Shown piece by piece: positions 1 to 55,660 of a DNA stretch of 55,660 bases. The translations under genes were made by a program, and so were the position numbers. Each line of letters opens with the position of its first letter. Position 1 is the stretch's first letter. The stretch covers positions 1 to 55,660 of the IMG/VR virus record IMGVR_UViG_3300028794_000001. The stretch is one strand, 5' to 3'. A model generated the notes under the pieces. It searched no databases and was not told the origin of the DNA. It saw nothing but the letters and a program-made list of their open reading frames with translations. Origin of the DNA: a virus.

Positions 1-127
1 GGCTTCCTTCCCCTTGATCTCCAGCGCTCCGCCCGGTCCCTTGTTCTCGGGGGCGTTCGGATCCGGTTGACGGGGCGCCCCGCTCATCATCGGATCTGGT
101 TGAAGCCCGTTGGGCATTTCCGCGGGC
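1..127. repeat. Terminal direct repeat, identical copy at 55534..55660 (circular-contig overlap)
   Basis: The first 127 nt (GGCTTCCTTCCCCTTGATCTCC...CATTTCCGCGGGC) recur exactly as the last 127 nt. The repeat lies inside one continuous reading frame (portal). Confidence 0.9.
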
Positions 128-851: not shown

Positions 852-873
852 TGGACTGGACGCGCGCACTCCA
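852..873. promoter_or_regulatory. Class II upstream element, copy a (TGGAC TGGAC GCGCGCACTCCA)
   Basis: The 17-mer TGGACGCGCGCACTCCA (857-873, arms TGGA/TCCA) recurs identically at 25283-25299 and 52155-52171. Confidence 0.6.
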
Positions 874-943
874 CATGCCCTGGAATCGGACGGTCTTGGC
901 GGTTTGCTTCGACGTAAAGGTCCTGAACTAGGTGAGGGACGGT

Positions 944-959
944 TGGCCCCTGTCCTGCA
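944..959 (+). promoter_or_regulatory. Sigma54-type -24/-12 element TGGCCC-CTGTC-CTGCA
   Basis: The GG and GC dinucleotides are spaced as in the consensus TGGCAC-N5-TTGCW. The block TGCAATAGATACCGAAC-ATG parallels the copies at 25201-25215 and 52064-52078. Confidence 0.5.
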
Positions 960-972
960 ATAGATACCGAAC

Positions 973-1101
973 ATGAACCCGACCATCCGGAACCTCGAAG
1001 CGCAAATCGCCGCGACCCCGGTCAGGGATCAAGCGTCCCTGCGCGCCCTCTACACCAAGCTGTCCCACGTCTACGCGGAGCTGCTCCGCCCTACCAGGTG
1101 A
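973..1101 (+). CDS. Small hypothetical protein (42 aa)
   Basis: ATG 973, TGA 1099-1101, GC-rich third positions. Product: MNPTIRNLEAQIAATPVRDQASLRALYTKLSHVYAELLRPTR. It is below the ORF-track size cutoff. Confidence 0.5.
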   Translation: MNPTIRNLEAQIAATPVRDQASLRALYTKLSHVYAELLRPTR

Positions 1102-15046: not shown

Positions 15047-17029
15047 ATGGCCGACCTGTTCGACGATCTGGCGGCAAAGGCCGCGCAAGCTTACGGGGGC
15101 GCGATTGACCTCGCGACTGCGGTCAGCTCGCCGACCATCGCGCTCCCGCCGAACAGGATCTTGATGGAAGGGAAGTACGCCGTCAGGGACAGCGAAGACC
15201 TGCGGAGGATCGAAGCGCTTCCAAGGCGCTCTGCGACGGTAGCCCCGGAGTCGAAGCACTGGCTGGAGCAAGTCGTCGAGTACATGACCGCGTCGCTCCG
15301 GATCGACAATCCGGCGTGTCAGTGCGCGGCGCTGGGGGCTGTGAAGAAAGACGGATCCCCGGACTGCATTCTGCGTCTGCTCCCCGTGCAGGCGGCGTAC
15401 CTCTATGAGGCGATGCTGATTGGCGGGATTCTCGGTCCAATCGGTGTAGGGCACGGCAAGACGGGGATCGACATCCTGCTCCCGATGGTCATCCCGGGAT
15501 GCAAGGTTGCGGTGTTGCTGCTCCCACCGCGCCTGGTGCCTCAGCTGAAGCACGATTTCAAGCTCTGGTCCCAGCACTTCAGGACACCGAACCTCGCCGG
15601 ATGCCCTCCCTTTCGCGCGGACGGTCGCCCCGTGCTCGAGCTGTTGCCCTACTCCATGCTGTCGACGAAAAGCGGCGCAGGCAAGCTGCTGGAGCTGCGC
15701 CCCGACGTGCTGATGATGGACGAATGCCACAACGCGAAGAAGCCGAAGCCGGGCGCGCGCCCGTCCGCGCGATGGGCGCGAATCGAGGACTTCAAGCGCG
15801 CCTACCCCGCTTGCCGCCACTACCGCCACAGTGGCACGGTCACCACGAAGAGCGTCTACGACTACCAGCACCATTCGGAGGACTGCTTGGGCGATCGCAG
15901 CATCCTCCCGCGCGACCCCGATGCGATGGCCGAATGGGCTGCGGCCCTAGATCCAGTCGACGACCCGGCACCCATCGGTGCGCTTCGCCGCCTGTGCCAG
16001 ATCGGCGAGAACGCTCGGCAGGGCTTCCGGAGGCGCCTGGTCGAGACCGCGGGGGTGGTGGCGACCGAGGAAAGCGCCATCGGGAATTCGCTGTTTTTCA
16101 CTGAACGCAAGGTATCGATCCCGAAAGTCATCGGTGACTTGATCGCGAAAACCCGTCTGAGCAACGAACGCCCGGACGGTGAGCCCTTTGCCGACGGGCT
16201 GCGCAAGGCGGCGTGCCTGCGCGAGCTGAGCGCCGGCTTCTATTACGTATGGTACTTCCCACCCATTGACGGCGTTCCGCAACGCGCTTCCGTGATCGAT
16301 CTCTGGCTGGAGCGACGCAAGGCTTACAACAAAGAACTGTACGCCCGGTTGCTGGCGCCGCAGCCCGGAATGGATTCGATGCTGCTCTGTTGGGAGGCTG
16401 CGACGCGCTGGCACGAGGGCTACGTTTGGATCGATGTGCACGGTCACCGGCACACTGAGCCTGCATATTCGACGAGGGGGCCTTACCCGGTCTGGGCGTC
16501 ACAGCACTTCGTCGGGTGGCGCGAGGTCAAAGACACGGTCGTAAAGCAGACCGTTCCAAAATGGGTGGACGATTTTCTGGTCGCGGACGCCCTCGTGTGG
16601 GCCCGCGCGGAGCCCGGGATCGTCTGGTTCGATCACCGCGCCTTTGGGCTGCGCATGCGCGAGCTTGCCCCGGACCTCGGTTTCTACGGCGGCGGGGACA
16701 AGGACGACGAGCGCATGATCGAGGAGCGTGCTAAGGTGTCGATCATCTGCTCAATTGATTCGCATGGTGAAGGTAAGAAACTTCAAAAGTTCTATCGGTC
16801 GTTGATGGGAAATTTCCCCAAAAACAAAACGCTTGAGCAGGTGATCGGCCGTACGCATCGGCAGGGGCAGCACGCCGACGAGGTGGAGATCTGCTGGTAC
16901 CGCCACACCGACGAATATTGTAAATTCTTTGACAACGCGTATGAGCAGGCGCGGTATGTCGACGAGACCCAGGCGAAGAGCGTCGGGGCTTCACAGAAAC
17001 TCCTGCTCGGATCGAAGGACTGGCGATGA
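15047..17029 (+). CDS. SNF2/DEAD-like superfamily 2 helicase
   Basis: Motif I GVGHGKTG, motif II LMMDECHN, motif VI QVIGRTHRQGQ. Confidence 0.85.
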   Translation: MADLFDDLAAKAAQAYGGAIDLATAVSSPTIALPPNRILMEGKYAVRDSEDLRRIEALPRRSATVAPESKHWLEQVVEYMTASLRIDNPACQCAALGAVKKDGSPDCILRLLPVQAAYLYEAMLIGGILGPIGVGHGKTGIDILLPMVIPGCKVAVLLLPPRLVPQLKHDFKLWSQHFRTPNLAGCPPFRADGRPVLELLPYSMLSTKSGAGKLLELRPDVLMMDECHNAKKPKPGARPSARWARIEDFKRAYPACRHYRHSGTVTTKSVYDYQHHSEDCLGDRSILPRDPDAMAEWAAALDPVDDPAPIGALRRLCQIGENARQGFRRRLVETAGVVATEESAIGNSLFFTERKVSIPKVIGDLIAKTRLSNERPDGEPFADGLRKAACLRELSAGFYYVWYFPPIDGVPQRASVIDLWLERRKAYNKELYARLLAPQPGMDSMLLCWEAATRWHEGYVWIDVHGHRHTEPAYSTRGPYPVWASQHFVGWREVKDTVVKQTVPKWVDDFLVADALVWARAEPGIVWFDHRAFGLRMRELAPDLGFYGGGDKDDERMIEERAKVSIICSIDSHGEGKKLQKFYRSLMGNFPKNKTLEQVIGRTHRQGQHADEVEICWYRHTDEYCKFFDNAYEQARYVDETQAKSVGASQKLLLGSKDWR

Positions 17030-17349
17030 AGGCACTTCCCGGAATGAGTTTGAAGGCGTACCGCGAGGAAGGCGACCGCGCGTTTCTGGGCGTGGTGCTG
17101 AAGGAGGCGGGCGGGAATATCGCCAAGGCCGCGCGACTGGCGGGGCTTTCGCGCACGGGCTTATACCGGCTGATGAGCAAGTATGGGATCGAAGTCGCTG
17201 AGAAAGGAGCCGAACCCATCGTTCCGGTCCTTGGAGAGCCGATGGTTTGCGAGCACGCAAACGAAGCCTCTGACATCTGCGAATGCGATGAGGAGTGCTA
17301 CTGCCGGAAGGGGCTGTGCTACATGCGCAGCGCTGAGGCGCGCGCGTGA
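17026..17349 (+). CDS. Stand-alone NtrC/Fis-type HTH (HTH_8-like) DNA-binding protein with Cys-rich tail
   Basis: LKEAGGNIAKAARLAGLSRTGLYRLMSKYGIE matches the pattern of the C-terminal HTH of Fis and sigma54 activators (..GN...AA..LG..R.TLYRK...YGI). No AAA+ domain. Tail: CEHANEASDICECDEECYCRKGLC. Confidence 0.75.
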   Translation: MKALPGMSLKAYREEGDRAFLGVVLKEAGGNIAKAARLAGLSRTGLYRLMSKYGIEVAEKGAEPIVPVLGEPMVCEHANEASDICECDEECYCRKGLCYMRSAEARA

Positions 17350-17498
17350 AGGCACTCGCCGGCAAGATTCTGGAGGCGCTGTGCGTGGCTGCGTTCACCA
17401 CTGTCGGCGCAGCTCTGGGAGCGAAGCTGCTGGAACGCGTCGTACCTCCAGAACCTCAGCCCGAACCCGTTCGTAAGGCACGAAGGAAACGCCGATGA
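17346..17498 (+). CDS. Small membrane protein (50 aa)
   Basis: GTG 17346 overlaps TGA 17347-17349. Product: VKALAGKILEALCVAAFTTVGAALGAKLL...RKARRKRR. Not in the ORF track. Confidence 0.45.
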   Translation: MKALAGKILEALCVAAFTTVGAALGAKLLERVVPPEPQPEPVRKARRKRR

Positions 17499-18200: not shown

Positions 18201-19154
18201 ATGAGTAATCCTTACCCTGGTCAGTTTCCCCCCGCGCCCGCCGGACAACCGGCGGCGCCTCAGTATCCGCCGCAAGCCGGATGGGCGCCTACGCCCCCCG
18301 GTTACCCTCAGGCGCCCGCGCCCCAGGGTTACTACCCTCCCCAGCAGCCCGGGTACGCAGGCCCGCCCGGGTACGCACCCCAGCAGGCGCCGCCGCCCGG
18401 GTATCCCCAAGCACCGAATCCGTTCGGGGCGCCGCCTCAGCAGGGCGGAAGCGTCGTCGACGCGGTGATTCAGGCCGTGCTCGGCGCCGAGTCGTCCGAT
18501 GGTGGGTCGCGCTGGAGGCACGGTCGGTACCTCGTGCTGATCGAGCAACTCGTCTTCAAGCAAGGCAACGAGGGACCACTCTTCGTGCCGGAGTTCCGTG
18601 TCGAGCAGTCGCAGGCGGTCAACATCGTCAACCCCGACACCAACCAGGTGGATGGGCCTTTTGATCCGGGGACGACAATCGGCTTTCCCTGCAAGATGCA
18701 GAAGAAGCCCTCGGCATCGAACGCGCGCGGCTTCGTCCTCGCGATGCTCGAAAAGCCCGAGAACAAGCAGGACCCCGAACTCACCAAGCTGATCGGTGAG
18801 AAGATGGCGCAGTGGTCGCAGCCGGGGCAGCCGCTGCGCGGCTTCGCTGTGCTGATCGAGACGTACAACCACACGATTCGCAGCGGGCCAAACGCGGGCA
18901 AGAACATGATTCGGCTCAAGTTTAAGCGACTGCCGGGGCAGACCGCGGAAAGCGTCACCGCGAACCGGGCGAAGCTTGACCAGTTCGCCCCGCCCGCCGC
19001 GCGAGCTGCGCCGGGTGCTCCCGCGCCGCAGTACCCTCAGGCGCCCGCGCCCCAGGGCTACGCGCCCCCGCCGCTGCCTCCGATGCCCCCCGCTCCGCAG
19101 GCGCCCGGCGCGCCCCCGGCCGCCCCCGGCAATCCGTTTCAAGGTCTGCTGTAG
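18201..19154 (+). CDS. Protein with a globular core flanked by P/Q/Y-rich disordered termini
   Basis: N-terminus: PQYPPQAGWAPTPPGYPQAPAPQGYYPPQQPGY. C-terminus: APAPQYPQAPAPQGYAPPPLPPMPP. A 26-nt direct repeat lies at 18303-18328 and 19032-19057. Confidence 0.7.
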   Translation: MSNPYPGQFPPAPAGQPAAPQYPPQAGWAPTPPGYPQAPAPQGYYPPQQPGYAGPPGYAPQQAPPPGYPQAPNPFGAPPQQGGSVVDAVIQAVLGAESSDGGSRWRHGRYLVLIEQLVFKQGNEGPLFVPEFRVEQSQAVNIVNPDTNQVDGPFDPGTTIGFPCKMQKKPSASNARGFVLAMLEKPENKQDPELTKLIGEKMAQWSQPGQPLRGFAVLIETYNHTIRSGPNAGKNMIRLKFKRLPGQTAESVTANRAKLDQFAPPAARAAPGAPAPQYPQAPAPQGYAPPPLPPMPPAPQAPGAPPAAPGNPFQGLL

Positions 19155-19206: not shown

Positions 19207-19527
19207 ATGAACACGATGCTCGAGCTTGTCGAAGACGCTTTGCTGAGCGCGCTTGAAGAGGCGGGTCCGAAGCTCCCTAAGGATTTCTCGATTCGGATTC
19301 CTGACAAGGCTTACGCCGCACTCGCGCACGCTGCACCGGCGCCGCATATGATCGCTGGCGGGTACACCATCAGGATCTACCCAGACAGCGCTCTCACATT
19401 GTTCGAAGACATGACGCTTGCCGAATGGATCGAGCACACCACAGCTACGGCGCTGAACGACGCGCCCGAAGACGACTTTCGACGAAGGGCCGCCGCAGCG
19501 CTCCGGAAGGTCAGGACCGGCAAGTGA
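19207..19527 (+). CDS. Hypothetical protein (106 aa)
   Basis: I moved the start to ATG 19207, after GGAG. Product: MNTMLELVEDALLSALEEAG... Confidence 0.6.
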   Translation: MNTMLELVEDALLSALEEAGPKLPKDFSIRIPDKAYAALAHAAPAPHMIAGGYTIRIYPDSALTLFEDMTLAEWIEHTTATALNDAPEDDFRRRAAAALRKVRTGK

Positions 19528-21740
19528 CCCCCGAGCGAAACTACTGGGCATTCGACCTAGAAACCGACCTCATTATGCCCGGGTTGCTGGCGCCCCCGCC
19601 GGTCTGCGCGTCGGTCTCGGACGCCAAGGGGGCTAAGAAGATCCTCGCCGATGCTGAGATCCTTCCATGGGTCGCGCACGAGTTGGACCGATCGATCTGG
19701 ATCGGCGCCAATATCGCCTACGACTTCGGAGTGATCGGCGCCTACTCCCCCTCCCTCGTGCGCTCGATCTTCAAGGCCTACAGGGAAGGCCGGGTCTTCG
19801 ACATTCAGATTGCACAGGCCCTCGATGCCATCGCCAAGGGCACCCTGTTCAAGGACCCGCGCACCGGGGGCGGGCTGAAGGACCCGACGACAGGCAAAAG
19901 CAAAAACCGCTACTCCTTGTCCATCGTGACGGACCTGGTACTTGGGCGAAAGGACGCCAAGGCAAATGACTGGGCGCGCTTGCGCTACTCGCTCTTCCGC
20001 GGCGTACCGCTCGCCGGCTGGACCGAGCATGCGCGGGCGCTCGGCTGCGTTGACCCCGAGGGCGTTACTCAGTACCCGCTGGATGATGCAGGCAATACGA
20101 TGAGCTGTGCGCTCGGGCAGCGCGGACACGAAAACCTTCAGGAAATGGCCGCGCAGTCCTACACCGCTTGGTGCATGCACCTTGGCTCGATGTGGGGTCG
20201 CCGAACGGATCCTGTAGCGGTTGCGAATCTGAAGACGATTATCGAAGCCAAGCACGCAAAGGCTGTGATCGATTTCAAGGCCTCCGGGCTGCTCGACGAG
20301 AACGGCGACGAAGACCAGATCGTCAAGAAGCGGATGGTCGCGACTGCGTACGGCGCAACGGGCATTTGCCCGGCGTGCGTCGGAAGCGGAAAGGTGATCA
20401 GCGAGAAGAGCGGCAACCCGATTCAGTGCAAGGTCTGCAGCGCGACGGGGCTCAACATTGCTTCCGCACCCACGCTCAAGCTGACGGACACCGGGGGCGT
20501 CTGCGCGGATCGCGATGCTCTTTCGGAGTCTGGCGATGATCTGCTAGAGAGCTACGCCGACGTTTCGAACATCAACAAGCTTCGCAACACCTACCTTCCT
20601 TTTCTTGAGCTTGGAACGAAGCAACCGGTCAACGTTCAACCTAATGTGATCGTCGAGAACGGGCGTACCTCGTATGAGGGGCTGATCCAGCTCATCCCGC
20701 GACAGGGAGGGATTCGCGAGTGCTTCCTTCCGCGCGAGGGTTGGCTTTACTGCTCGACCGATTACCCCGCCCTGGAAATGACGACGCTCGCACAGGTCTG
20801 CATGTGGATCGTGGGCTGGTCGCAGCTCCAACAGGCGATTGACGCCAAGCTGGATTTGCACAGCGCCTTCGCGGCGAAGCTGACCGGGAAGAGCTATGAC
20901 GAGTTCTACGCGCTGATCCTCGCGAAGGACAAATGGGCGAAGGGCATTCGCCAAGCCTGCAAGGCCGCTAATTTCGGCTTCCCCGGGTACATGGGCGCAG
21001 CCCGATTCGTTGCCTCCAAGCGCGCGCAGGAGAACTTACGGATCTGCATCTCATTGGGACAAGCCCCGAAGTGCGAGACCTGCCAAGGCGTCGAGGGTAT
21101 CGATTGCAAACGCTGCTACGGGCGCGGATTCCTTTGCGCTCTGGTCAAGGTTACCGAGTGGAACAACCGGAAGACCACCCCGACGTGTAAGCACTGCCTC
21201 GAGCTTGCCGAGGACCTGAAAAAGGGGTGGTTTGCCCAGTGGTCCGAGATGAAGTCCTATTTCGATTTCATCAAAAAGCAATGCGCGAGTCCCCTCGGGG
21301 GGAAGCTGCGTCAGTTCGTCAGCAACCGGTGGCGCGGCAACCTCGACGTCATGAATGGCGCGAACACGCTTTTCTCCGGCCTTGCCGCGGATCTGGCGAA
21401 ATACGCGCTGCGGCTGATCAGCGACGAAGCGTACACCGACGAGAACAGCGCACTTTGGGAGACACGTCCGCTCGAGCTGATCCACGACGAGGTGTTCAGC
21501 GAGATGCCCGAAGCCCGCGCACATGCGGCGGCTTGGCGCCAGGCGGAGCTGTGTGACCAAGCTCTGGCGCGCTATTGCCCCGACGTGAAGCCAAAGAATG
21601 TGGAGCCCGCGTTGATGCGGCGGTGGTCGAAAGACGCCGAGCGGGTCGATGGGCCGGACGGGAAGTTGATCCCCTGGACGCCGAAGCGGAAGCCGGGCGA
21701 GGTGTTCATGTGGGAACCGGGCTACACGGCCGCAGCTTGA
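19524..21740 (+). CDS. Family A DNA polymerase with 3-prime-5-prime exonuclease domain and Zn-finger insertions
   Basis: I moved the start to GTG 19524 (GTGA overlap). Exo I FDLETD, motif B RQACKAANFGFPGYMG, motif C LIHDEVFSE. Insertions: CPACVGSG...CKVCSATG and CETCQG...CKRCYGRG. Confidence 0.92.
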   Translation: MTPERNYWAFDLETDLIMPGLLAPPPVCASVSDAKGAKKILADAEILPWVAHELDRSIWIGANIAYDFGVIGAYSPSLVRSIFKAYREGRVFDIQIAQALDAIAKGTLFKDPRTGGGLKDPTTGKSKNRYSLSIVTDLVLGRKDAKANDWARLRYSLFRGVPLAGWTEHARALGCVDPEGVTQYPLDDAGNTMSCALGQRGHENLQEMAAQSYTAWCMHLGSMWGRRTDPVAVANLKTIIEAKHAKAVIDFKASGLLDENGDEDQIVKKRMVATAYGATGICPACVGSGKVISEKSGNPIQCKVCSATGLNIASAPTLKLTDTGGVCADRDALSESGDDLLESYADVSNINKLRNTYLPFLELGTKQPVNVQPNVIVENGRTSYEGLIQLIPRQGGIRECFLPREGWLYCSTDYPALEMTTLAQVCMWIVGWSQLQQAIDAKLDLHSAFAAKLTGKSYDEFYALILAKDKWAKGIRQACKAANFGFPGYMGAARFVASKRAQENLRICISLGQAPKCETCQGVEGIDCKRCYGRGFLCALVKVTEWNNRKTTPTCKHCLELAEDLKKGWFAQWSEMKSYFDFIKKQCASPLGGKLRQFVSNRWRGNLDVMNGANTLFSGLAADLAKYALRLISDEAYTDENSALWETRPLELIHDEVFSEMPEARAHAAAWRQAELCDQALARYCPDVKPKNVEPALMRRWSKDAERVDGPDGKLIPWTPKRKPGEVFMWEPGYTAAA

Positions 21741-24310: not shown

Positions 24311-24714
24311 ACGGCGTTCTGAACTGGCTGCGGAAGGTAGAGGTTCCCCTTCCGTCGATCATCTCGACGCTCGTGGAAATGCCCTTCGTCTACCCGGGGA
24401 AGAAGACCAAGAACCCGAATAGCGTGATGCTCACCGCGGCCATCGCGGGGGCGTTTGCAGCATTCGGGCTCGACAACCGCAAGGTGACCTCCGTCCTCCC
24501 GCGGGATTGGAAGGGAGGGATGGACGGAGAGGTGTTCATCAGGAAGGTGGTCCAGCCGTCCTGCGAGGACGGCGAGCGTTTGAAGATCGAGCACTGGACT
24601 GCCGCGTTTCCGGCCAGCTACCGGCACAACATCTGGGACGCTGTAGGGCTCGGGTTGTGGCAATTCAAGCGTCTCAAATCCGGGCGTGTTTTCCACGGAG
24701 CTGTTGACGGGTAG
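24169..24714 (+). CDS. RuvC-like Holliday junction resolvase
   Basis: MRLFIDPGANDFGAAVF (Asp), LVEMPFVYPG (Glu), HNIWDAVGLGLW (Asp). Confidence 0.75.
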   Translation: MRLFIDPGANDFGAAVFTETGGVYRATLVRNEVGPEASALARGAGALNGVLNWLRKVEVPLPSIISTLVEMPFVYPGKKTKNPNSVMLTAAIAGAFAAFGLDNRKVTSVLPRDWKGGMDGEVFIRKVVQPSCEDGERLKIEHWTAAFPASYRHNIWDAVGLGLWQFKRLKSGRVFHGAVDG

Positions 24715-24737
24715 CCAGCGACAGTTTTACTGTCAAG
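24704..24737 (+). promoter_or_regulatory. Class I motif: TTGACG-N18-TACTGT within TTTTACTGTCAAG
   Basis: TACTGT ends 6 nt before ATG 24740, which fits a leaderless transcript. Confidence 0.5.
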
Positions 24738-24739
24738 GC

Positions 24740-24979
24740 ATGAAGACCAAGAGCCAAAAGGAGAAACTCACGGAGGCGCTCGAAACGCTTCGCGCGACGC
24801 TTCGGGTGAATGCCCCGAAGCAGTGGACCGCGAAGCAACTTGCCAAGCGGCTGCGCTGCACCCGTGCGACGATCTACAACCGTCTCGAGGCGCTGCACGA
24901 CACGGGGTTCAAGCTGAAATGGGGTGAGAAGCGCGATGGTGCGCGCGGGCCTCTCAGTGCGACGGTCACCGCAGGCTGA
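24740..24979 (+). CDS. Winged-helix DNA-binding protein (79 aa)
   Basis: I moved the start to ATG 24740. WTAKQLAKRLRCTRATIYNRLEALHDTGFKL looks like an HTH_11-type motif. Confidence 0.6.
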   Translation: MKTKSQKEKLTEALETLRATLRVNAPKQWTAKQLAKRLRCTRATIYNRLEALHDTGFKLKWGEKRDGARGPLSATVTAG

Positions 24980-25187
24980 GTTCCAGCGGGTCCCAGATCT
25001 TGCTCGCCATCGCCGCGTCGGCCAACCGCAGCGCCTTCGTTTCAGCAAGCTCCAGGTCGGCGCGCAACGCATCGAACCGGCGCAGGGTGTCTGCAGTCGC
25101 GCGGGTCGAGAAGAGCGCGTGGAGGGCGTCGCGAAGCTCGAACACCTTCGCCTGTGCTGCTTTGGCTTCTGCGTTGATCTCGTTCAT
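24966..25187 (-). CDS. Coiled-coil small protein (73 aa), antisense to the surrounding block
   Basis: I moved the start to ATG 25187 (MNEINAEAKAAQAKVFELRDAL...). It converges on 24740..24979 and overlaps it by 14 bp. Confidence 0.5.
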   Translation of the reverse strand: MNEINAEAKAAQAKVFELRDALHALFSTRATADTLRRFDALRADLELAETKALRLADAAMASKIWDPLELSLR

Positions 25188-25200
25188 GCCCTCTTCTATA

Positions 25201-25215
25201 GCAAAGCCTAGGCCG
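25201..25215 (-). promoter_or_regulatory. Sigma54-type -24/-12 element CGGCCT-AGGCT-TTGC(T)
   Basis: GG-N10-GC register. TTGCTATAGAAGAGGGC-ATG 25187 parallels copies a and c. Confidence 0.5.
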
Positions 25216-25267
25216 TCGTTCAAATCCGCTGAACAATTACCGTGTGAACGCGACACCCACCTAAAGA

Positions 25268-25299
25268 TGGACTGGACTGGACTGGACGCGCGCACTCCA
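25268..25299. promoter_or_regulatory. Class II upstream element, copy b (four TGGAC pentamers + GCGCGCACTCCA)
   Basis: TGGACTGGACTGGACTGGACGCGCGCACTCCA. The identical 17-mer is at 25283-25299. Confidence 0.6.
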
Positions 25300-25335
25300 T
25301 CTGTCCTGATTCAGGACGAAGCGCAGGGGCGCCAG

Positions 25336-25599
25336 ATGAACGAAAGCAAGCAGATGGTCGACGGCACGCCGAGTGCTCGTCTCGCGGACATGAATCCATT
25401 GGTTCGAGCAGCACGCGTGCAGCATCTTCAGGCAGACATGGCGCTTCAGCTTGCGATCCGCAAGGGGCACATCGATGAGGTCGCGCTGCTCGCCCAGCAC
25501 AAAACCGAGTGCATCGATCAGCTGATCGAGATCATGAACGCCGTCGAGCCCGGGTGCTTCGATCTTCCGGAGATGTTCGAGATCGTGGAGGTTCCGTGA
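25336..25599 (+). CDS. Hypothetical protein (87 aa)
   Basis: I moved the start to ATG 25336 (MNESKQMVDGTPSARL...). The stop overlaps GTG 25596. Confidence 0.55.
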   Translation: MNESKQMVDGTPSARLADMNPLVRAARVQHLQADMALQLAIRKGHIDEVALLAQHKTECIDQLIEIMNAVEPGCFDLPEMFEIVEVP

Positions 25600-51795: not shown

Positions 51796-51863
51796 GAAGG
51801 CTCCTTACATTTCAATACTGAACGTTTGTTCAGGTGAGCGACTACTTCCGCCCACCTCGGCTA

Positions 51864-51885
51864 CCGGGCCGCCGAGGCGGCCCGG
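51864..51885. terminator. Perfect 9-bp GC hairpin 6 nt after the stop of 51892..52050
   Basis: CCGGGCCGC-CGAG-GCGGCCCGG. The T-rich tail (TTCGTTTT) is on the plus strand only. Confidence 0.35.
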
Positions 51886-51891
51886 TTCGTT

Positions 51892-52050
51892 TTAGAACCC
51901 CTGTGCCTTCAGCCAGTCGGAAAGGGAGGCGGTCTCACCCTTGGCTTTCGCCGCATACCAGGCCGACACCCGCGCCTGCTGGGCCCGCTCTTCGGTACCG
52001 CGGGGGGCCACGTTCTTCCCGGTGCGCTTCTTCTTCTCGGTCTCAGTCAT
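51892..52050 (-). CDS. Small basic protein (52 aa)
   Basis: ATG 52050, TAA 51892-51894. Product: MTETEKKKRTGKNVAPRGTEERAQQARVSAWYAAKAKGETASLSDWLKAQGF. Not in the ORF track. Confidence 0.5.
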   Translation of the reverse strand: MTETEKKKRTGKNVAPRGTEERAQQARVSAWYAAKAKGETASLSDWLKAQGF

Positions 52051-52063
52051 GCCCGTATCTATA

Positions 52064-52078
52064 GCAACCTCGGGGCCA
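52064..52078 (-). promoter_or_regulatory. Sigma54-type -24/-12 element TGGCCC-CGAGG-TTGC(T)
   Basis: The best match of the three to TGGCAC-N5-TTGCW. 13 nt separate the GC from ATG 52050. Confidence 0.55.
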
Positions 52079-52149: not shown

Positions 52150-52171
52150 TGGATTGGACGCGCGCACTCCA
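52150..52171. promoter_or_regulatory. Class II upstream element, copy c (TGGAT TGGAC GCGCGCACTCCA)
   Basis: The identical 17-mer is at 52155-52171. It lies between the Mu-F-like gene stop (52188) and the sigma54-like element. Confidence 0.6.
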
Positions 52172-52187
52172 CATGTCCGAAGTTCGG

Positions 52188-54033: not shown

Positions 54034-55660
54034 CTACTTTCCGAAGCCCCCGGGCTTTTTCCCGAATCCGCCTCCTCCGGATGGAGGCTTACCTTTCGCG
54101 ACCGGCTTCCCGCCGAACCCTCCTGGCTTGCCCCCGCTCTTGGGCGGGAAGCCTCCGCCGCCCGGCGCGCCACCCGCCTTGGCTGCCTCCAGGTTCATCT
54201 GAGCGGCCTCGTCGTCCGCGGCCTTGCGCTCGGCCGCCATCGCCGAACGGTCGGAGGTCGCCAGCTTGATCTCCGCACTGAAGGTGTCACCGCCCCACAG
54301 GGACACCGCCCCCTCCTCAGGGGTGATCATCTGGTTGGTAATCGCGAGTGCCACCATCTCGACCACAGCCTTCCGACGCTGCGCTTCTTGCAACTCGTCG
54401 AGTTGCCACAGCGGCTTCCATTTGATCGACCATTTCTCGGGCAGCTTCAGGCCCATCGCTTGCGCCTTCAGCTCGCAGACCTTGCGCACGATCTTGGAGA
54501 GATCTCTGACCTGCCCGGCCTTCACGTCGTCGTAGAACCAGCGGATATTGGCGTCGCCCGTCGCGTTCAGCCCCGCGGGGGATTCGCCCATGAGCTTCGA
54601 CACAGGGATGCGCGCGGCTGCGGCGAGCCTCGTAGCGAAGCGGTCGAGCAAGTCCGGCAGGCCTGTAACCGTGGTGGTCTTGCGCTCGAAGTCTTCGCCG
54701 TCCGCGTCGAGCATCACGGAGTTCAGCACCGAGCGCGAGTAGTCCGCCGCGCGCACGCGGTTGCGGAAGCGCTGCGCGTCCTCGGGATCCTCGCTGGCGA
54801 CGAGGTCAGCCAGACCTTTCATCTTGAAGATCGTCTGGGAAAAGTCCTGCATCAGCACGCCGGTCGCGGCCCAGCTGGATTGGAAGTCCCGGACAATCTC
54901 CCAGCAACGGGTGAGCGTCGAATCCCCCCACCCATTGACCGACTCCCGCCGATGGCGCTTCGACACCACCACCCCGTCGAACCGGACGATCCGGGACTCG
55001 TGGACGATTTGCGTTCCGACCAATCGCCCGAGTCCATCCATATTGTCCGGGGTCAGGTAGTAGGTCTCGATCTCGCCGTACTTCGGCGCACCGGGATCGC
55101 CATACCAGGTGGCAGGGGAAAGCTCGCGCGGATGCAAGACGTTGATCCACTCGAATGCCCTCACGCGCTTCGGGTCCAGAGGCTTGCTCATGTCCCGCTG
55201 TCCGTCGTCGGCGCCGAGCAGCCACGCCCCTCCCCCATACGCGCGCGCGTAGGTGCGCGCCTCGTAGATCTTGGAGAGCAGCTCCATCTCGTCCAGTGCG
55301 TGCTCGATTTCCTCGAGCGGGTCGGGCCCCTCGGGCTGCGGCGCGCCGGGGGCGCCCGGGGGCTGGCCCTGCTTCACAAAGGGCGGGGGTTTGGCGGGCT
55401 GCAGCCCGCCCCCCGCGGCGGGGGTTTCCTCGCCCGGGCGCACAGGCTGCGCGTCGGGGTCCTTGGGGGGCGGGGCGCCCTCGCCCGGTTTCGCTTCCGG
55501 ATTGGGCGTCTCCCCGGGCTTCTCGGAGCCTGCGGCTTCCTTCCCCTTGATCTCCAGCGCTCCGCCCGGTCCCTTGTTCTCGGGGGCGTTCGGATCCGGT
55601 TGACGGGGCGCCCCGCTCATCATCGGATCTGGTTGAAGCCCGTTGGGCATTTCCGCGGGC
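54034..55660 (-). CDS. Portal protein, C-terminal part (continues from 128..825 across the circular junction)
   Basis: EARTYARAYGGGAWLLGADDGQ..., a DUF1073-like core and a G/K/P-rich C-terminal tail. The frame has no stop upstream of 55650 and joins the 1..825 frame. Confidence 0.9.
   Translation of the reverse strand, partial: PAEMPNGLQPDPMMSGAPRQPDPNAPENKGPGGALEIKGKEAAGSEKPGETPNPEAKPGEGAPPPKDPDAQPVRPGEETPAAGGGLQPAKPPPFVKQGQPPGAPGAPQPEGPDPLEEIEHALDEMELLSKIYEARTYARAYGGGAWLLGADDGQRDMSKPLDPKRVRAFEWINVLHPRELSPATWYGDPGAPKYGEIETYYLTPDNMDGLGRLVGTQIVHESRIVRFDGVVVSKRHRRESVNGWGDSTLTRCWEIVRDFQSSWAATGVLMQDFSQTIFKMKGLADLVASEDPEDAQRFRNRVRAADYSRSVLNSVMLDADGEDFERKTTTVTGLPDLLDRFATRLAAAARIPVSKLMGESPAGLNATGDANIRWFYDDVKAGQVRDLSKIVRKVCELKAQAMGLKLPEKWSIKWKPLWQLDELQEAQRRKAVVEMVALAITNQMITPEEGAVSLWGGDTFSAEIKLATSDRSAMAAERKAADDEAAQMNLEAAKAGGAPGGGGFPPKSGGKPGGFGGKPVAKGKPPSGGGGFGKKPGGFGK
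55534..55660. repeat. Terminal direct repeat, second copy of 1..127
   Basis: Exact identity to bases 1-127. Confidence 0.9.

What the first reader, a model, noticed from the sequence alone, without database searches (positions are those of the whole stretch)
17026..17349. Stand-alone NtrC/Fis-type HTH protein: candidate binder of the 17-bp class II element or decoy for host sigma54 activators
The 107-aa product contains SLKAYREEGDRAFLGVVLKEAGGNIAKAARLAGLSRTGLYRLMSKYGIE. This matches the pattern of the C-terminal DNA-binding domain of Fis and of NtrC-family enhancer-binding proteins. It lacks receiver and AAA+ domains and ends in a Cys-rich tail (CEHANEASDICECDEECYCRKGLC).

NtrC-type dimers bind 17-bp inverted repeats, and the class II element is a 17-bp TGGA-N9-TCCA repeat.

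Two hypotheses:
- the protein recruits or positions a host activator at phage promoters;
- it competes with host activators at their own sites.
Basis: inference. Interest (0 to 1): 0.65.

Follow-up and report, generated by a model that had tools for sequence, protein, structure and literature searches.

The report
Phage enhancer-binding-type HTH with Cys tail
A phage gene encodes only the DNA-binding end of a bacterial sigma-54 activator, fused to an undescribed cysteine-rich module, and the same genome has three sigma-54-type promoters, each with an identical upstream repeat that this protein may bind.

Summary
ORF 17026-17349 (+) is a real 107-aa gene. Residues ~7-57 are a Fis/NtrC-type HTH (Pfam HTH_8, 33.7 bits against a cut-off of 22). 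The AF2 model has pLDDT 95-98 there and superposes on the NtrC4 DNA-binding domain at 0.7-0.9 Å. NCBIfam matches only the last ~50 positions of enhancer-binding-protein (EBP) models, not Fis.

- **No activator machinery:** the phage encodes no AAA+/GAFTGA activator and no RpoN.
- **Cys tail:** it is a conserved, undescribed module (C-x-HANE-x4-C-x-C-x3-CYC-x4-5-C). It occurs in 15 other small proteins; the four contigs examined look like phage early or replication gene arrays. It is absent from Pfam and PHROGs.
- **The repeat:** the "17-mer" is real (3 exact copies) but is the core of a 22-28 bp element.
- **New finding:** each copy lies 72-86 bp upstream of a -24/-12 (sigma-54-type) motif, which sits 14-15 nt before an ATG. 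None of 20,000 random triples reproduced this.
- **Origin:** the gene is a lineage-specific cassette. It is absent from relatives and flanked by a duplicated gene 5' end.

Best reading (confidence ~0.4): a DBD-only EBP mimic that occupies phage enhancers and modulates host-EBP-driven sigma-54 transcription. Binding is untested, and a second phage HTH (HTH_11, 24686-24979) and host EBPs are rival binders.

The parts
17026..17349 (+). Gene for the 107-aa HTH_8 + Cys6His protein. It is translationally coupled to the upstream helicase gene (ATGA overlap) and to the downstream small ORF (GTGA overlap).
17044..17196 (+). Fis/NtrC-type DNA-binding domain, residues ~7-57: a long helix (9-28) followed by the helix-turn-helix (32-39 and 43-53).
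   Evidence: Pfam HTH_8, 33.7 bits. AF2 pLDDT 95-98. Foldseek best matches are the NtrC4, NtrC1, NtrX and Fis DNA-binding domains. NCBIfam matches only the C-terminal ends of EBP models.
17248..17319 (+). Cys6His 'CxHANE' module, residues 75-98: CEHANEASDICECDEECYCRKGLC.
   Evidence: The pattern C-x-HANE-x4-C-x-C-x3-CYC-x4/5-C is invariant in 16 proteins. No Pfam or PHROG family matches it. The structure model is of low confidence.
852..880 (+). Copy 1 of the conserved 22-28 bp element (17-mer core 857-873). It lies in the divergent intergenic region between the portal gene (- strand, ATG 826 or 876) and gene 973 (+).
944..959 (+). Sigma-54-type -24/-12 motif P1: TGGCCCCTGTCCTGCA. Predicted +1 is about 970; the ATG is at 973.
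973..1101 (+). First gene downstream of P1 (42 aa, no family match).
25278..25306 (+). Copy 2 of the element (core 25283-25299), preceded by extra GGACT repeats. It lies in the long intergenic region after the HTH_11 gene.
25362..25377 (+). Sigma-54-type motif P2: CGGCACGCCGAGTGCT. Predicted +1 is about 25388; an in-frame ATG is at 25390.
25390..25599 (+). First gene downstream of P2 (69 aa if it starts at 25390; an alternative ATG at 25336 has a Shine-Dalgarno-like AGGGG). A dNMP kinase gene follows.
52150..52178 (+). Copy 3 of the element (core 52155-52171), in the intergenic region between two - strand genes. It is inverted relative to its promoter.
52063..52078 (-). Sigma-54-type motif P3: TGGCCCCGAGGTTGCT. 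Predicted +1 is about 52052; the ATG is at 52050.
51892..52050 (-). Gene downstream of P3 (52 aa). A strong hairpin terminator at 51863-51886 follows it.
24686..24979 (+). Second phage HTH protein (97 aa, HTH_11), immediately upstream of element copy 2. It is a rival candidate binder.
   Evidence: Pfam HTH_11, E = 3e-8, 33.9 bits against a cut-off of 25.

Best explanation
The gene encodes a 'DNA-binding-domain-only' relative of bacterial sigma-54 enhancer-binding proteins.

**What the sequence shows**
- The protein has a Fis/NtrC-type three-helix domain whose long first helix is the dimerisation helix in NtrC4 and Fis.
- The domain is followed by a linker and a conserved Cys6His module.

**Proposed mechanism (inferred)**
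- The protein binds as a dimer to the 22-28 bp element that contains the 17-mer.
- That element sits about 100 bp upstream of three sigma-54-type promoters in the phage genome.
- The phage has no AAA+ activator and no sigma-54 of its own. Open-complex formation at these promoters must therefore depend on host sigma-54 RNA polymerase and a host AAA+ activator.
- By occupying the enhancer, the phage protein most likely gates that activation. It would compete with the host activator, acting as a timing or shut-off switch produced from the replication operon.
- Less likely, it tethers a host ATPase through the Cys module.
- The Cys6His module probably binds metal and supplies the oligomerisation or stability that full-length activators get from their AAA+ ring.

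**Status of each step**
- Shown: the domain identity, the fold, the absence of AAA+ and RpoN, the repeat, and the promoter-like motifs with their geometry.
- Inferred: DNA binding to this element, the sign of the regulation, metal binding, and the use of host sigma-54.
For: **Domain identity**
- HTH_8 scores above the Pfam threshold.
- The AF2 model has pLDDT 95-98 over residues 9-53.
- It superposes on the NtrC4 DNA-binding domain at rmsd 0.7-0.9 Å over 51 columns. NtrC1, NtrX, ZraR and Fis follow.
- NCBIfam hits are only to positions ~394-452 of the PrsR, GlrR and NtrX models, which is the DNA-binding end of EBPs. No Fis model matches.
- This is the only HTH_8 ORF in the genome.

**No phage activator**
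- No GAFTGA motif, no EBP Walker A and no RpoN box appear in any of the six frames.

**The element**
- Three identical 17-mers occur against 0.41 expected. They sit within 22-28 bp of conserved sequence whose flanks are otherwise unrelated.
- All three lie in intergenic regions.
- They do not form RNA structures better than shuffled sequence (z = -0.1 to +1.3), which favours a DNA-level protein site.

**The promoters**
- I used an a priori consensus, TGGCACG-N4-TTGCW, with GG and GC fixed and at least 5 of the 8 other positions matching. It gives 31 hits genome-wide.
- Each 17-mer has one hit 72-86 bp away that points away from it. None of 20,000 random triples of positions did so.
- The -12 C lies 14-15 nt before an ATG in all three cases, and the 17-mer centre falls at -105, -97 and -111.
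- At site 3 the element is inverted relative to the promoter, as expected for an orientation-independent enhancer.

**Consistency with NtrC sites**
- The element spans 17 bp with outer bases TGnA...TnCA, as in the enteric NtrC site TGCACC-N5-GGTGCA. This rests on established knowledge; the match itself is only partial.
Against: - No binding data exist, and no co-variation test is possible. The protein has no full-length homologue among 5.8 billion clusters or 1.84 billion representatives. The 21-mer of the element is absent from the metagenome and genome collections.
- A second phage HTH (HTH_11) is encoded right next to element copy 2. That is the classic position for a regulator and its operator.
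- A host EBP could bind the element with no phage protein involved.
- The host is unknown, so the presence of rpoN is unverified.
- Sigma-54-like motifs are not enriched genome-wide (33 observed against 54 expected at up to 2 mismatches). The distance window used was chosen after seeing the data.
- The predicted 5' UTRs are only 2-3 nt, which requires leaderless translation.
- The gene has no promoter or operator of its own, and it sits in a replication module.
- Small stand-alone HTH_8 proteins are common (95 of 149 best hits are 130 aa or shorter). Most presumably have nothing to do with sigma-54.
Confidence: 0.4

Rival explanations
1. The protein is a generic small phage transcription regulator or repressor. 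It happens to use an HTH_8 fold and binds sites other than the 17-mer, for example host promoters or phage early promoters. The 22-28 bp elements are bound by a host enhancer-binding protein alone, or by the phage HTH_11 protein.
For: - Stand-alone HTH_8 proteins of 50-130 aa are abundant in metagenomes. The two closest ones examined lie in phage-like arrays of small genes with no evident sigma-54 link.
- The HTH_11 gene at 24686-24979 abuts element copy 2.
- Weak PHROG hits include a 'transcriptional repressor' family.
- The Aca1 phage autorepressor is also listed with an HTH_8 match (PMC9410906).
Against: - This leaves unexplained why a genome with three enhancer-plus-sigma-54-type promoter modules also carries the one domain family specific to sigma-54 activators.
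- NCBIfam similarity is specifically to EBP C-termini.
- The arrangement is not Aca-like: the gene has no promoter or inverted repeat of its own and is translationally coupled to the helicase gene.
Confidence: 0.3
2. The protein is an adaptor activator. The HTH_8 dimer binds the phage enhancer, and the Cys6His module recruits a host AAA+ activator (or sigma-54 holoenzyme) that lacks affinity for phage DNA. Host ATPase activity is thereby redirected to phage promoters.
For: - The geometric evidence is the same as for the best explanation.
- The Cys6His module occurs on its own as small proteins, and the four contigs examined are phage early/replication gene arrays. That fits a protein-interaction or host-takeover module.
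- EBPs that lack DNA-binding domains and act from solution are known (FlgR of Helicobacter, CtcC of Chlamydia; established knowledge).
Against: - No precedent was found for a separate DBD polypeptide recruiting an EBP.
- The Cys module could not be modelled with confidence.
- The module occurs in AT-rich phages of evidently different hosts, which argues against a specific EBP partner.
Confidence: 0.15
3. The protein is a Fis-like architectural or nucleoid-associated factor. It acts in phage DNA replication, recombination or packaging rather than in transcription, and the sigma-54-like motifs are coincidental.
For: - The gene sits inside the replication module, between the SNF2-like helicase and DNA polymerase A.
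- Fis structures are among the fold matches.
Against: - The N-terminal beta-hairpin arms of Fis are absent.
- NCBIfam Fis models do not match at E <= 1e-3, whereas EBP models do.
- Relatives with the same replication module lack the gene, so it is not a core replication factor.
- The co-location of the 17-mers with -24/-12 motifs is very unlikely by chance.
Confidence: 0.1

Closest known systems
C-terminal DNA-binding domains of bacterial sigma-54 enhancer-binding proteins (NtrC4, NtrC1, NtrX, GlrR, PrsR; Pfam HTH_8)
   Same: - Same fold: rmsd 0.7-0.9 Å to NtrC4 DBD entries 3e7l and 4fth.
- Same sequence motif: GGN..KAA..LG.SR..LYR.
- Same long dimerisation helix before the HTH.
- A candidate target about 100 bp upstream of -24/-12 promoters.
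   Different: - No receiver or sensor domain and no AAA+ sigma-54-interaction domain, so it cannot itself remodel the closed complex.
- It carries a C-terminal Cys6His module that none of the matched EBP or Fis structures and models carries.
- It is encoded by a phage.
Fis (factor for inversion stimulation)
   Same: A small stand-alone HTH_8 protein with the same helix B-C-D core.
   Different: - It lacks the N-terminal beta-hairpin arms.
- Fis-specific NCBIfam models do not match.
- The candidate site has a GC-rich centre (CGCGCGC), unlike the AT-rich centre that Fis prefers (established knowledge).
CopY-type metal-switch repressors (DNA-binding domain plus C-terminal CxCx4CxC motif)
   Same: The architecture is analogous: an N-terminal DNA-binding domain followed by a C-terminal CxC...CxC cysteine cluster. 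This is recalled knowledge and was not tested here.
   Different: - The DNA-binding fold is different (winged helix of the BlaI/MecI type).
- The spacing is different: CxCx3CxC here, plus an invariant C-x-HANE and a sixth Cys.
- There is no sequence homology.
Small stand-alone HTH_8 proteins of metagenomic phages and mobile elements (for example P0012, and P0018 with a different Cys-rich tail)
   Same: - 45-51% identity over the HTH, including the N-terminal YREEGD(R/K)A(F/Y)L motif.
- They are encoded in arrays of small co-directional genes next to replication genes.
   Different: - None has the CxHANE module.
- None is functionally characterised.
- L013 shows no repeated element or sigma-54 motif.

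Membership tests
Pfam HTH_8 (Fis/NtrC-type DNA-binding domain) | Profile HMM score above the curated gathering threshold | tested here: met
   33.7 bits against 22, E = 2.9e-8, residues 18-53.
Pfam HTH_8 (Fis/NtrC-type DNA-binding domain) | Three-helix fold: a long dimerisation helix followed by the helix-turn-helix | tested here: met
   AF2 helices at 9-28, 32-39 and 43-53 with pLDDT 95-98. Foldseek TM (target-normalised) about 0.8 and rmsd 0.7-0.9 Å to the NtrC4 DBD.
Pfam HTH_8 (Fis/NtrC-type DNA-binding domain) | Sequence-specific DNA binding as a dimer | not testable with these tools
   This needs EMSA or footprinting. No dimer or DNA-complex modelling tool was available.
Bacterial enhancer-binding protein (bEBP) | Central AAA+ sigma-54-interaction domain with a GAFTGA loop | tested here: not met
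   The protein is 107 aa with no AAA+ domain. No GAFTGA-like motif or EBP Walker A appears in any frame of the window.
Bacterial enhancer-binding protein (bEBP) | C-terminal HTH_8 DNA-binding domain | tested here: met
   NCBIfam matches only to positions ~394-452 of the PrsR, GlrR and NtrX models.
Fis (nucleoid-associated protein) | Match to Fis equivalog models, and N-terminal beta-hairpin arms | tested here: not met
   No Fis model (NF001659, NF002517) matches at E <= 1e-3. The HTH domain begins by residue 9, leaving only an 8-residue unstructured N-terminus.
Sigma-54-dependent promoter with upstream enhancer | GG and GC dinucleotides separated by 10 nt, within a TGGCACG-N4-TTGCW-like context | tested here: met
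   The three sites at 944-959 (+), 25362-25377 (+) and 52063-52078 (-) match 9-10 of the 12 specified positions.
Sigma-54-dependent promoter with upstream enhancer | Activator binding site about 80-150 bp upstream, orientation-independent | tested here: met
   The identical repeat is centred at -105, -97 and -111 and is inverted at site 3. That it is bound by an activator is not shown.
Sigma-54-dependent promoter with upstream enhancer | Transcription start about 12 nt after the GC, and dependence on rpoN and an AAA+ activator | not testable with these tools
   The host is unknown. This needs TSS mapping and an rpoN mutant.
Anti-CRISPR-associated (Aca-like) autorepressor | HTH gene at the end of a short operon with its own promoter carrying inverted-repeat operators | tested here: not met
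   The gene overlaps the helicase stop codon and there is no intergenic region or promoter upstream.
'CxHANE' Cys6His module (undescribed; defined here) | C-x-H-A-N-E-x4(5)-C-x-C-x3-C-Y-C-x4(5)-C | tested here: met
   The motif is invariant in the window protein and 15 other proteins, 17 copies in all. No Pfam or PHROG model matches.

The most novel reading that the evidence does not exclude
A lytic-type phage runs part of its programme through host sigma-54. Three phage promoters of the -24/-12 type each carry an identical enhancer. The phage supplies only a detached enhancer-binding DNA-binding domain, fused to a new metal-binding Cys6His module. That protein either gates a host AAA+ activator or tethers it to the enhancer. 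This would be the first phage-encoded 'split' or dominant-negative enhancer-binding protein, and the first enhancer-dependent phage promoter set.
Probability: 0.3. Interest if true: 0.8.

Novelty: new variant of a known kind. Interest (0 to 1): 0.6.

Why it matters
Sigma-54 transcription is the one bacterial system that strictly needs an ATP-driven enhancer-binding activator. My keyword searches of the literature found no phage reported to carry sigma-54 promoters or enhancers, or a detached EBP DNA-binding domain.

If the reading is right, three things follow:
- Phages can plug into, or jam, host enhancer-dependent signalling with a 107-aa protein.
- It would be a natural example of a DBD-only competitor or adaptor for EBPs.
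- The CxHANE Cys6His module, found in small proteins of phage-like contigs and so far unnamed, would gain its first functional context.

Even on the conservative reading, the three-part arrangement of repeat, -24/-12 motif and near-leaderless ATG is a compact set of predictions that can be tested directly.

Tried and rejected
- **Full-length homologues.** None was found in the 5.8-billion-cluster word search, the exhaustive 1.84-billion-representative phmmer search, IMG/VR or INPHARED tblastn.
- **Synteny test.** Relatives found through the adjacent helicase have another small gene, or nothing, in this slot. They share 71%, 62% and 54% identity (contigs L008-L012) and 36% (MW202816). No co-variation of gene and element can therefore be scored.
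- **The element in public data.** The 17-mer gave two hits in IMG/VR, at about the number expected by chance; I did not inspect those loci. The 21-mer gave no hit in metagenome or genome contigs.
- **Host identification.** It failed. Terminase hits are scattered over many taxa. DNA polymerase hits only MW202816. The primase found no prophage relative.
- **RNA-structure reading of the element.** Rejected: fold energies are no better than shuffled sequence.
- **Sigma-70 extended -10 reading of 'TGCwATAGAT'.** It fits P1 and P3 but fails at P2 (TGCTCGTCT), whereas the -24/-12 reading fits all three.
- **The element as the start of a small ORF ('MWSARVQS').** Rejected: the frame is not kept at site 2.
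- **Phage-encoded AAA+ activator or RpoN.** None found.
- **Structure of the Cys module.** Two AF2 runs stayed at pLDDT 56-65, too low for a fold search.
- **Rosetta-stone test.** No HTH_8 gene neighbours the CxHANE genes in four other loci.
- **Enteric NtrC site consensus.** It is not enriched, and the 17-mers do not match it within 3 mismatches.
Full report
**1. The observation**

The ORF at 17026-17349 (+) encodes the 107-aa protein exactly as quoted. Several features mark it as a real gene:
- GC by codon position is 0.64/0.47/0.75, as in neighbouring genes.
- An AAGGA lies 6 nt before the ATG.
- The ATG overlaps the stop codon of the upstream 660-aa SNF2-like helicase gene. Its own stop overlaps the GTG of the next small ORF.

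The window is a complete circular phage genome of 55,533 bp with a 127-bp assembly overlap. Its layout is:
- a + strand replication module: VapE-type primase-helicase, a 662-aa protein, the SNF2-like helicase, the HTH gene, DNA polymerase A, an MT-A70 methylase, MazG and a dNMP kinase;
- - strand structural genes, with the terminase gene among them.

**2. The HTH domain**

- Pfam HTH_8 is matched above threshold: 33.7 bits against 22, E = 2.9e-8.
- An AF2 model built on 41 sequences gives pLDDT 95-98 for helices 9-28, 32-39 and 43-53.
- Foldseek against the PDB returns the NtrC4 DBD first (3e7l and 4fth; rmsd 0.7-0.9 Å over 51 columns). NtrC1, NtrX, ZraR and Fis follow.
- NCBIfam matches only the last ~50 positions of the enhancer-binding-protein models PrsR, GlrR and NtrX. 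No Fis model matches.
- A local HMM finds no second HTH_8 ORF in the genome.

The protein is therefore an EBP-type DNA-binding domain standing alone. No GAFTGA loop, EBP Walker A or RpoN box occurs in any reading frame. The phage thus has neither an activator ATPase nor a sigma-54 of its own.

**3. The Cys-rich tail**

The exhaustive phmmer search found 169 hits at E <= 1e-3. Most are small stand-alone HTH_8 proteins: 95 of the best 149 are 130 aa or shorter. A few hits matched the tail instead of the HTH.

- Together with a profile search, 16 proteins (17 copies) share the invariant pattern C-x-HANE-x4(5)-C-x-C-x3-CYC-x4(5)-C.
- They are mostly proteins of 57-163 aa with unrelated N-termini.
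- Where context is available, they lie in phage-like arrays of small genes next to DnaB, primase, UDG, NUDIX or His_Phos_1 genes.
- Neither Pfam nor PHROGs has a model for the motif. A literature search for the motif found nothing relevant.
- Two structure predictions stayed at low confidence, showing only a beta-hairpin at CYC...C.

Six Cys plus one His in 24 residues of an intracellular protein most likely bind metal. That is an inference. The CxC-x3-CxC core recalls the CopY/Mac1-type CxC clusters, which I cite from memory and did not test.

The fusion to an HTH_8 is unique to this window. No HTH_8 gene neighbours the module elsewhere.

**4. The repeat**

TGGACGCGCGCACTCCA occurs three times, identically and always on the + strand, against 0.41 expected.
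- The conserved block is longer than 17 bp: TGGAyTGGACGCGCGCACTCCAynTGyCC.
- The flanking sequence is otherwise unrelated, so the block itself is under selection.
- All copies are intergenic: between the portal gene (which crosses the window junction) and gene 973; after the HTH_11 gene; and between two - strand head genes.
- The element does not fold better than shuffled sequence as RNA.

**5. Sigma-54-type promoters (new)**

Scanning with the standard -24/-12 consensus showed a match beside each repeat.

| Site | Motif | Coordinates (strand) |
|---|---|---|
| P1 | TGGCCCCTGTCCTGCA | 944-959 (+) |
| P2 | CGGCACGCCGAGTGCT | 25362-25377 (+) |
| P3 | TGGCCCCGAGGTTGCT | 52063-52078 (-) |

- With an a priori score (GG and GC fixed, at least 5 of the other 8 positions matching) there are 31 hits in the genome.
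- Every repeat has one hit 72-86 bp away, pointing away from it. This happened in 0 of 20,000 random triples.
- I chose the distance window after seeing the data. A broader window would still give a rough estimate of p < 1e-3, which I did not compute.
- The -12 C is 14-15 nt before an ATG in all three cases. The predicted starts at about 970, 25388 and 52052 give 2-3 nt leaders. The repeat is centred at -105, -97 and -111.
- At P3 the repeat is inverted relative to the promoter.
- A sigma-70 extended -10 reading fits P1 and P3 but not P2.

This is the anatomy of enhancer-dependent promoters. The TTGGCCC form of the -24 box resembles what I recall for Caulobacter flagellar promoters, but I could not verify that here.

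**6. The link between protein and element**

*For the link*
- HTH_8 is the DNA-binding family of the activators that bind such enhancers.
- The protein is the only HTH_8 in the genome.
- The 17-bp span with outer TGnA...TnCA matches the frame of NtrC sites.

*Against the link*
- Nothing demonstrates binding.
- A second regulator (HTH_11, E = 3e-8) is encoded immediately upstream of copy 2.
- A host activator might suffice on its own.

*Co-variation cannot be tested*
- The gene is absent from all relatives found through the helicase.
- The only complete relative, MW202816, lacks the gene and shows no comparable multi-copy element by a partial check of repeated 14-mers. That is a single, distant data point.

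*The gene is a recent cassette*
- Its first 33 nt (MKALPGMSLKA) are 25/33 identical to the start of the downstream ORF (MKALAGKILEA).
- The insertion therefore duplicated the gene boundary.

**7. Mechanism and verdict**

*Best-supported reading (confidence ~0.4)*
- The protein is a DBD-only EBP mimic that binds the phage enhancers as a dimer.
- Lacking an ATPase, it modulates activation by a host EBP and sigma-54 holoenzyme, most simply by competition.
- The Cys6His module would provide metal-dependent stability or oligomerisation.

*Rivals*
- A generic HTH regulator unrelated to the element: 0.3.
- An adaptor that recruits a host ATPase: 0.15.
- A Fis-like architectural factor: 0.1.

*Verdict*
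- The protein is not a bEBP, because the AAA+ domain is absent.
- It is not Fis.
- It is a member of HTH_8.
- Keyword searches found no report of phage sigma-54 promoter/enhancer modules or detached EBP DNA-binding domains in phages. That is a lack of hits, not proof of absence.
- I rate it a new variant of a known kind, with interest 0.6.

Noticed in passing
window 1-127 and 55534-55660: An exact 127-bp terminal duplication: the window is a circularly assembled genome of 55,533 bp. The portal gene (- strand) crosses the junction. Its open frame runs from 927 through position 1 to 54037, with likely ATG at 826 or 876, so ORF lists of the linear window truncate it.
   Followed up: yes
window 17026-17058 and 17346-17378: The first 33 nt of the HTH gene are 25/33 identical to the first 33 nt of the next ORF (MKALPGMSLKA against MKALAGKILEA). 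The closest relative's downstream gene also starts MKA at the same helicase-stop overlap. This looks like a duplicated gene boundary left by cassette insertion at a mosaic joint.
   Followed up: partly
window 24686-24979 (+): A 97-aa protein with an HTH_11 winged-helix match (E = 3e-8). It is followed by an unusually long non-coding stretch (about 24980-25335) that holds element copy 2.
   Followed up: partly
P0025, P0040, P0100, P0121, P0127, P0130, P0151-P0159; loci L002, L003, L006, L007: An undescribed Cys6His mini-domain (C-x-HANE-x4-C-x-C-x3-CYC-x4-C) occurs in small proteins; the four contigs examined carry phage-like early or replication gene arrays. P0040 carries two copies. No Pfam or PHROG family covers it.
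   Followed up: partly
P0018 in L013:3752-4027: A 91-aa stand-alone HTH_8 protein with nearly the same N-terminal motif (YREEGDKAYL) but a different C-terminal Cys cluster (C-x4-C-x11-C-x2-C). It lies next to an AAA_25 helicase gene in a phage-like contig. HTH_8 plus a Cys tail may be a recurring architecture.
   Followed up: partly
P0002, P0009, P0014, P0003, P0005: Proteins with tandem HTH_8 repeats, 2-6 matched stretches per protein. One is a 1423-aa SecA-like protein with a C-terminal array of HTH_8 units.
   Followed up: no
window 25261-25282: Element copy 2 is preceded by extra GGACT units (GGACTGGACTGGACTGGAC), so the TGGAC half-site is reiterated as a short tandem array only at this site.
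   Followed up: no
window 51863-51886: A strong 10-bp GC-rich hairpin with a T-run (ACCGGGCCGCCGAGGCGGCCCGGT TCGTTTT) lies immediately after the 52-aa gene driven by P3. It isolates that gene as a one-gene unit inside the head-gene cluster.
   Followed up: no
window 18303-18349 and 19032-19078 (gene 18201-19154): The 317-aa protein downstream has Pro/Gln-rich low-complexity ends that repeat each other (47 nt, 83% identity). Its counterpart in MW202816 is a 210-aa protein without them.
   Followed up: no
L011/L012:3363-6434: The helicase homologue at 54% identity carries an intein with a LAGLIDADG homing endonuclease.
   Followed up: no
window 19425-21740: The DNA polymerase A has a Cys-rich insertion around residues 300-343, with weak DnaJ CXXCXGXG-like hits. 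The insertion is also visible in the MW202816 polymerase (CPECDGGG...CKPCQGTG).
   Followed up: no
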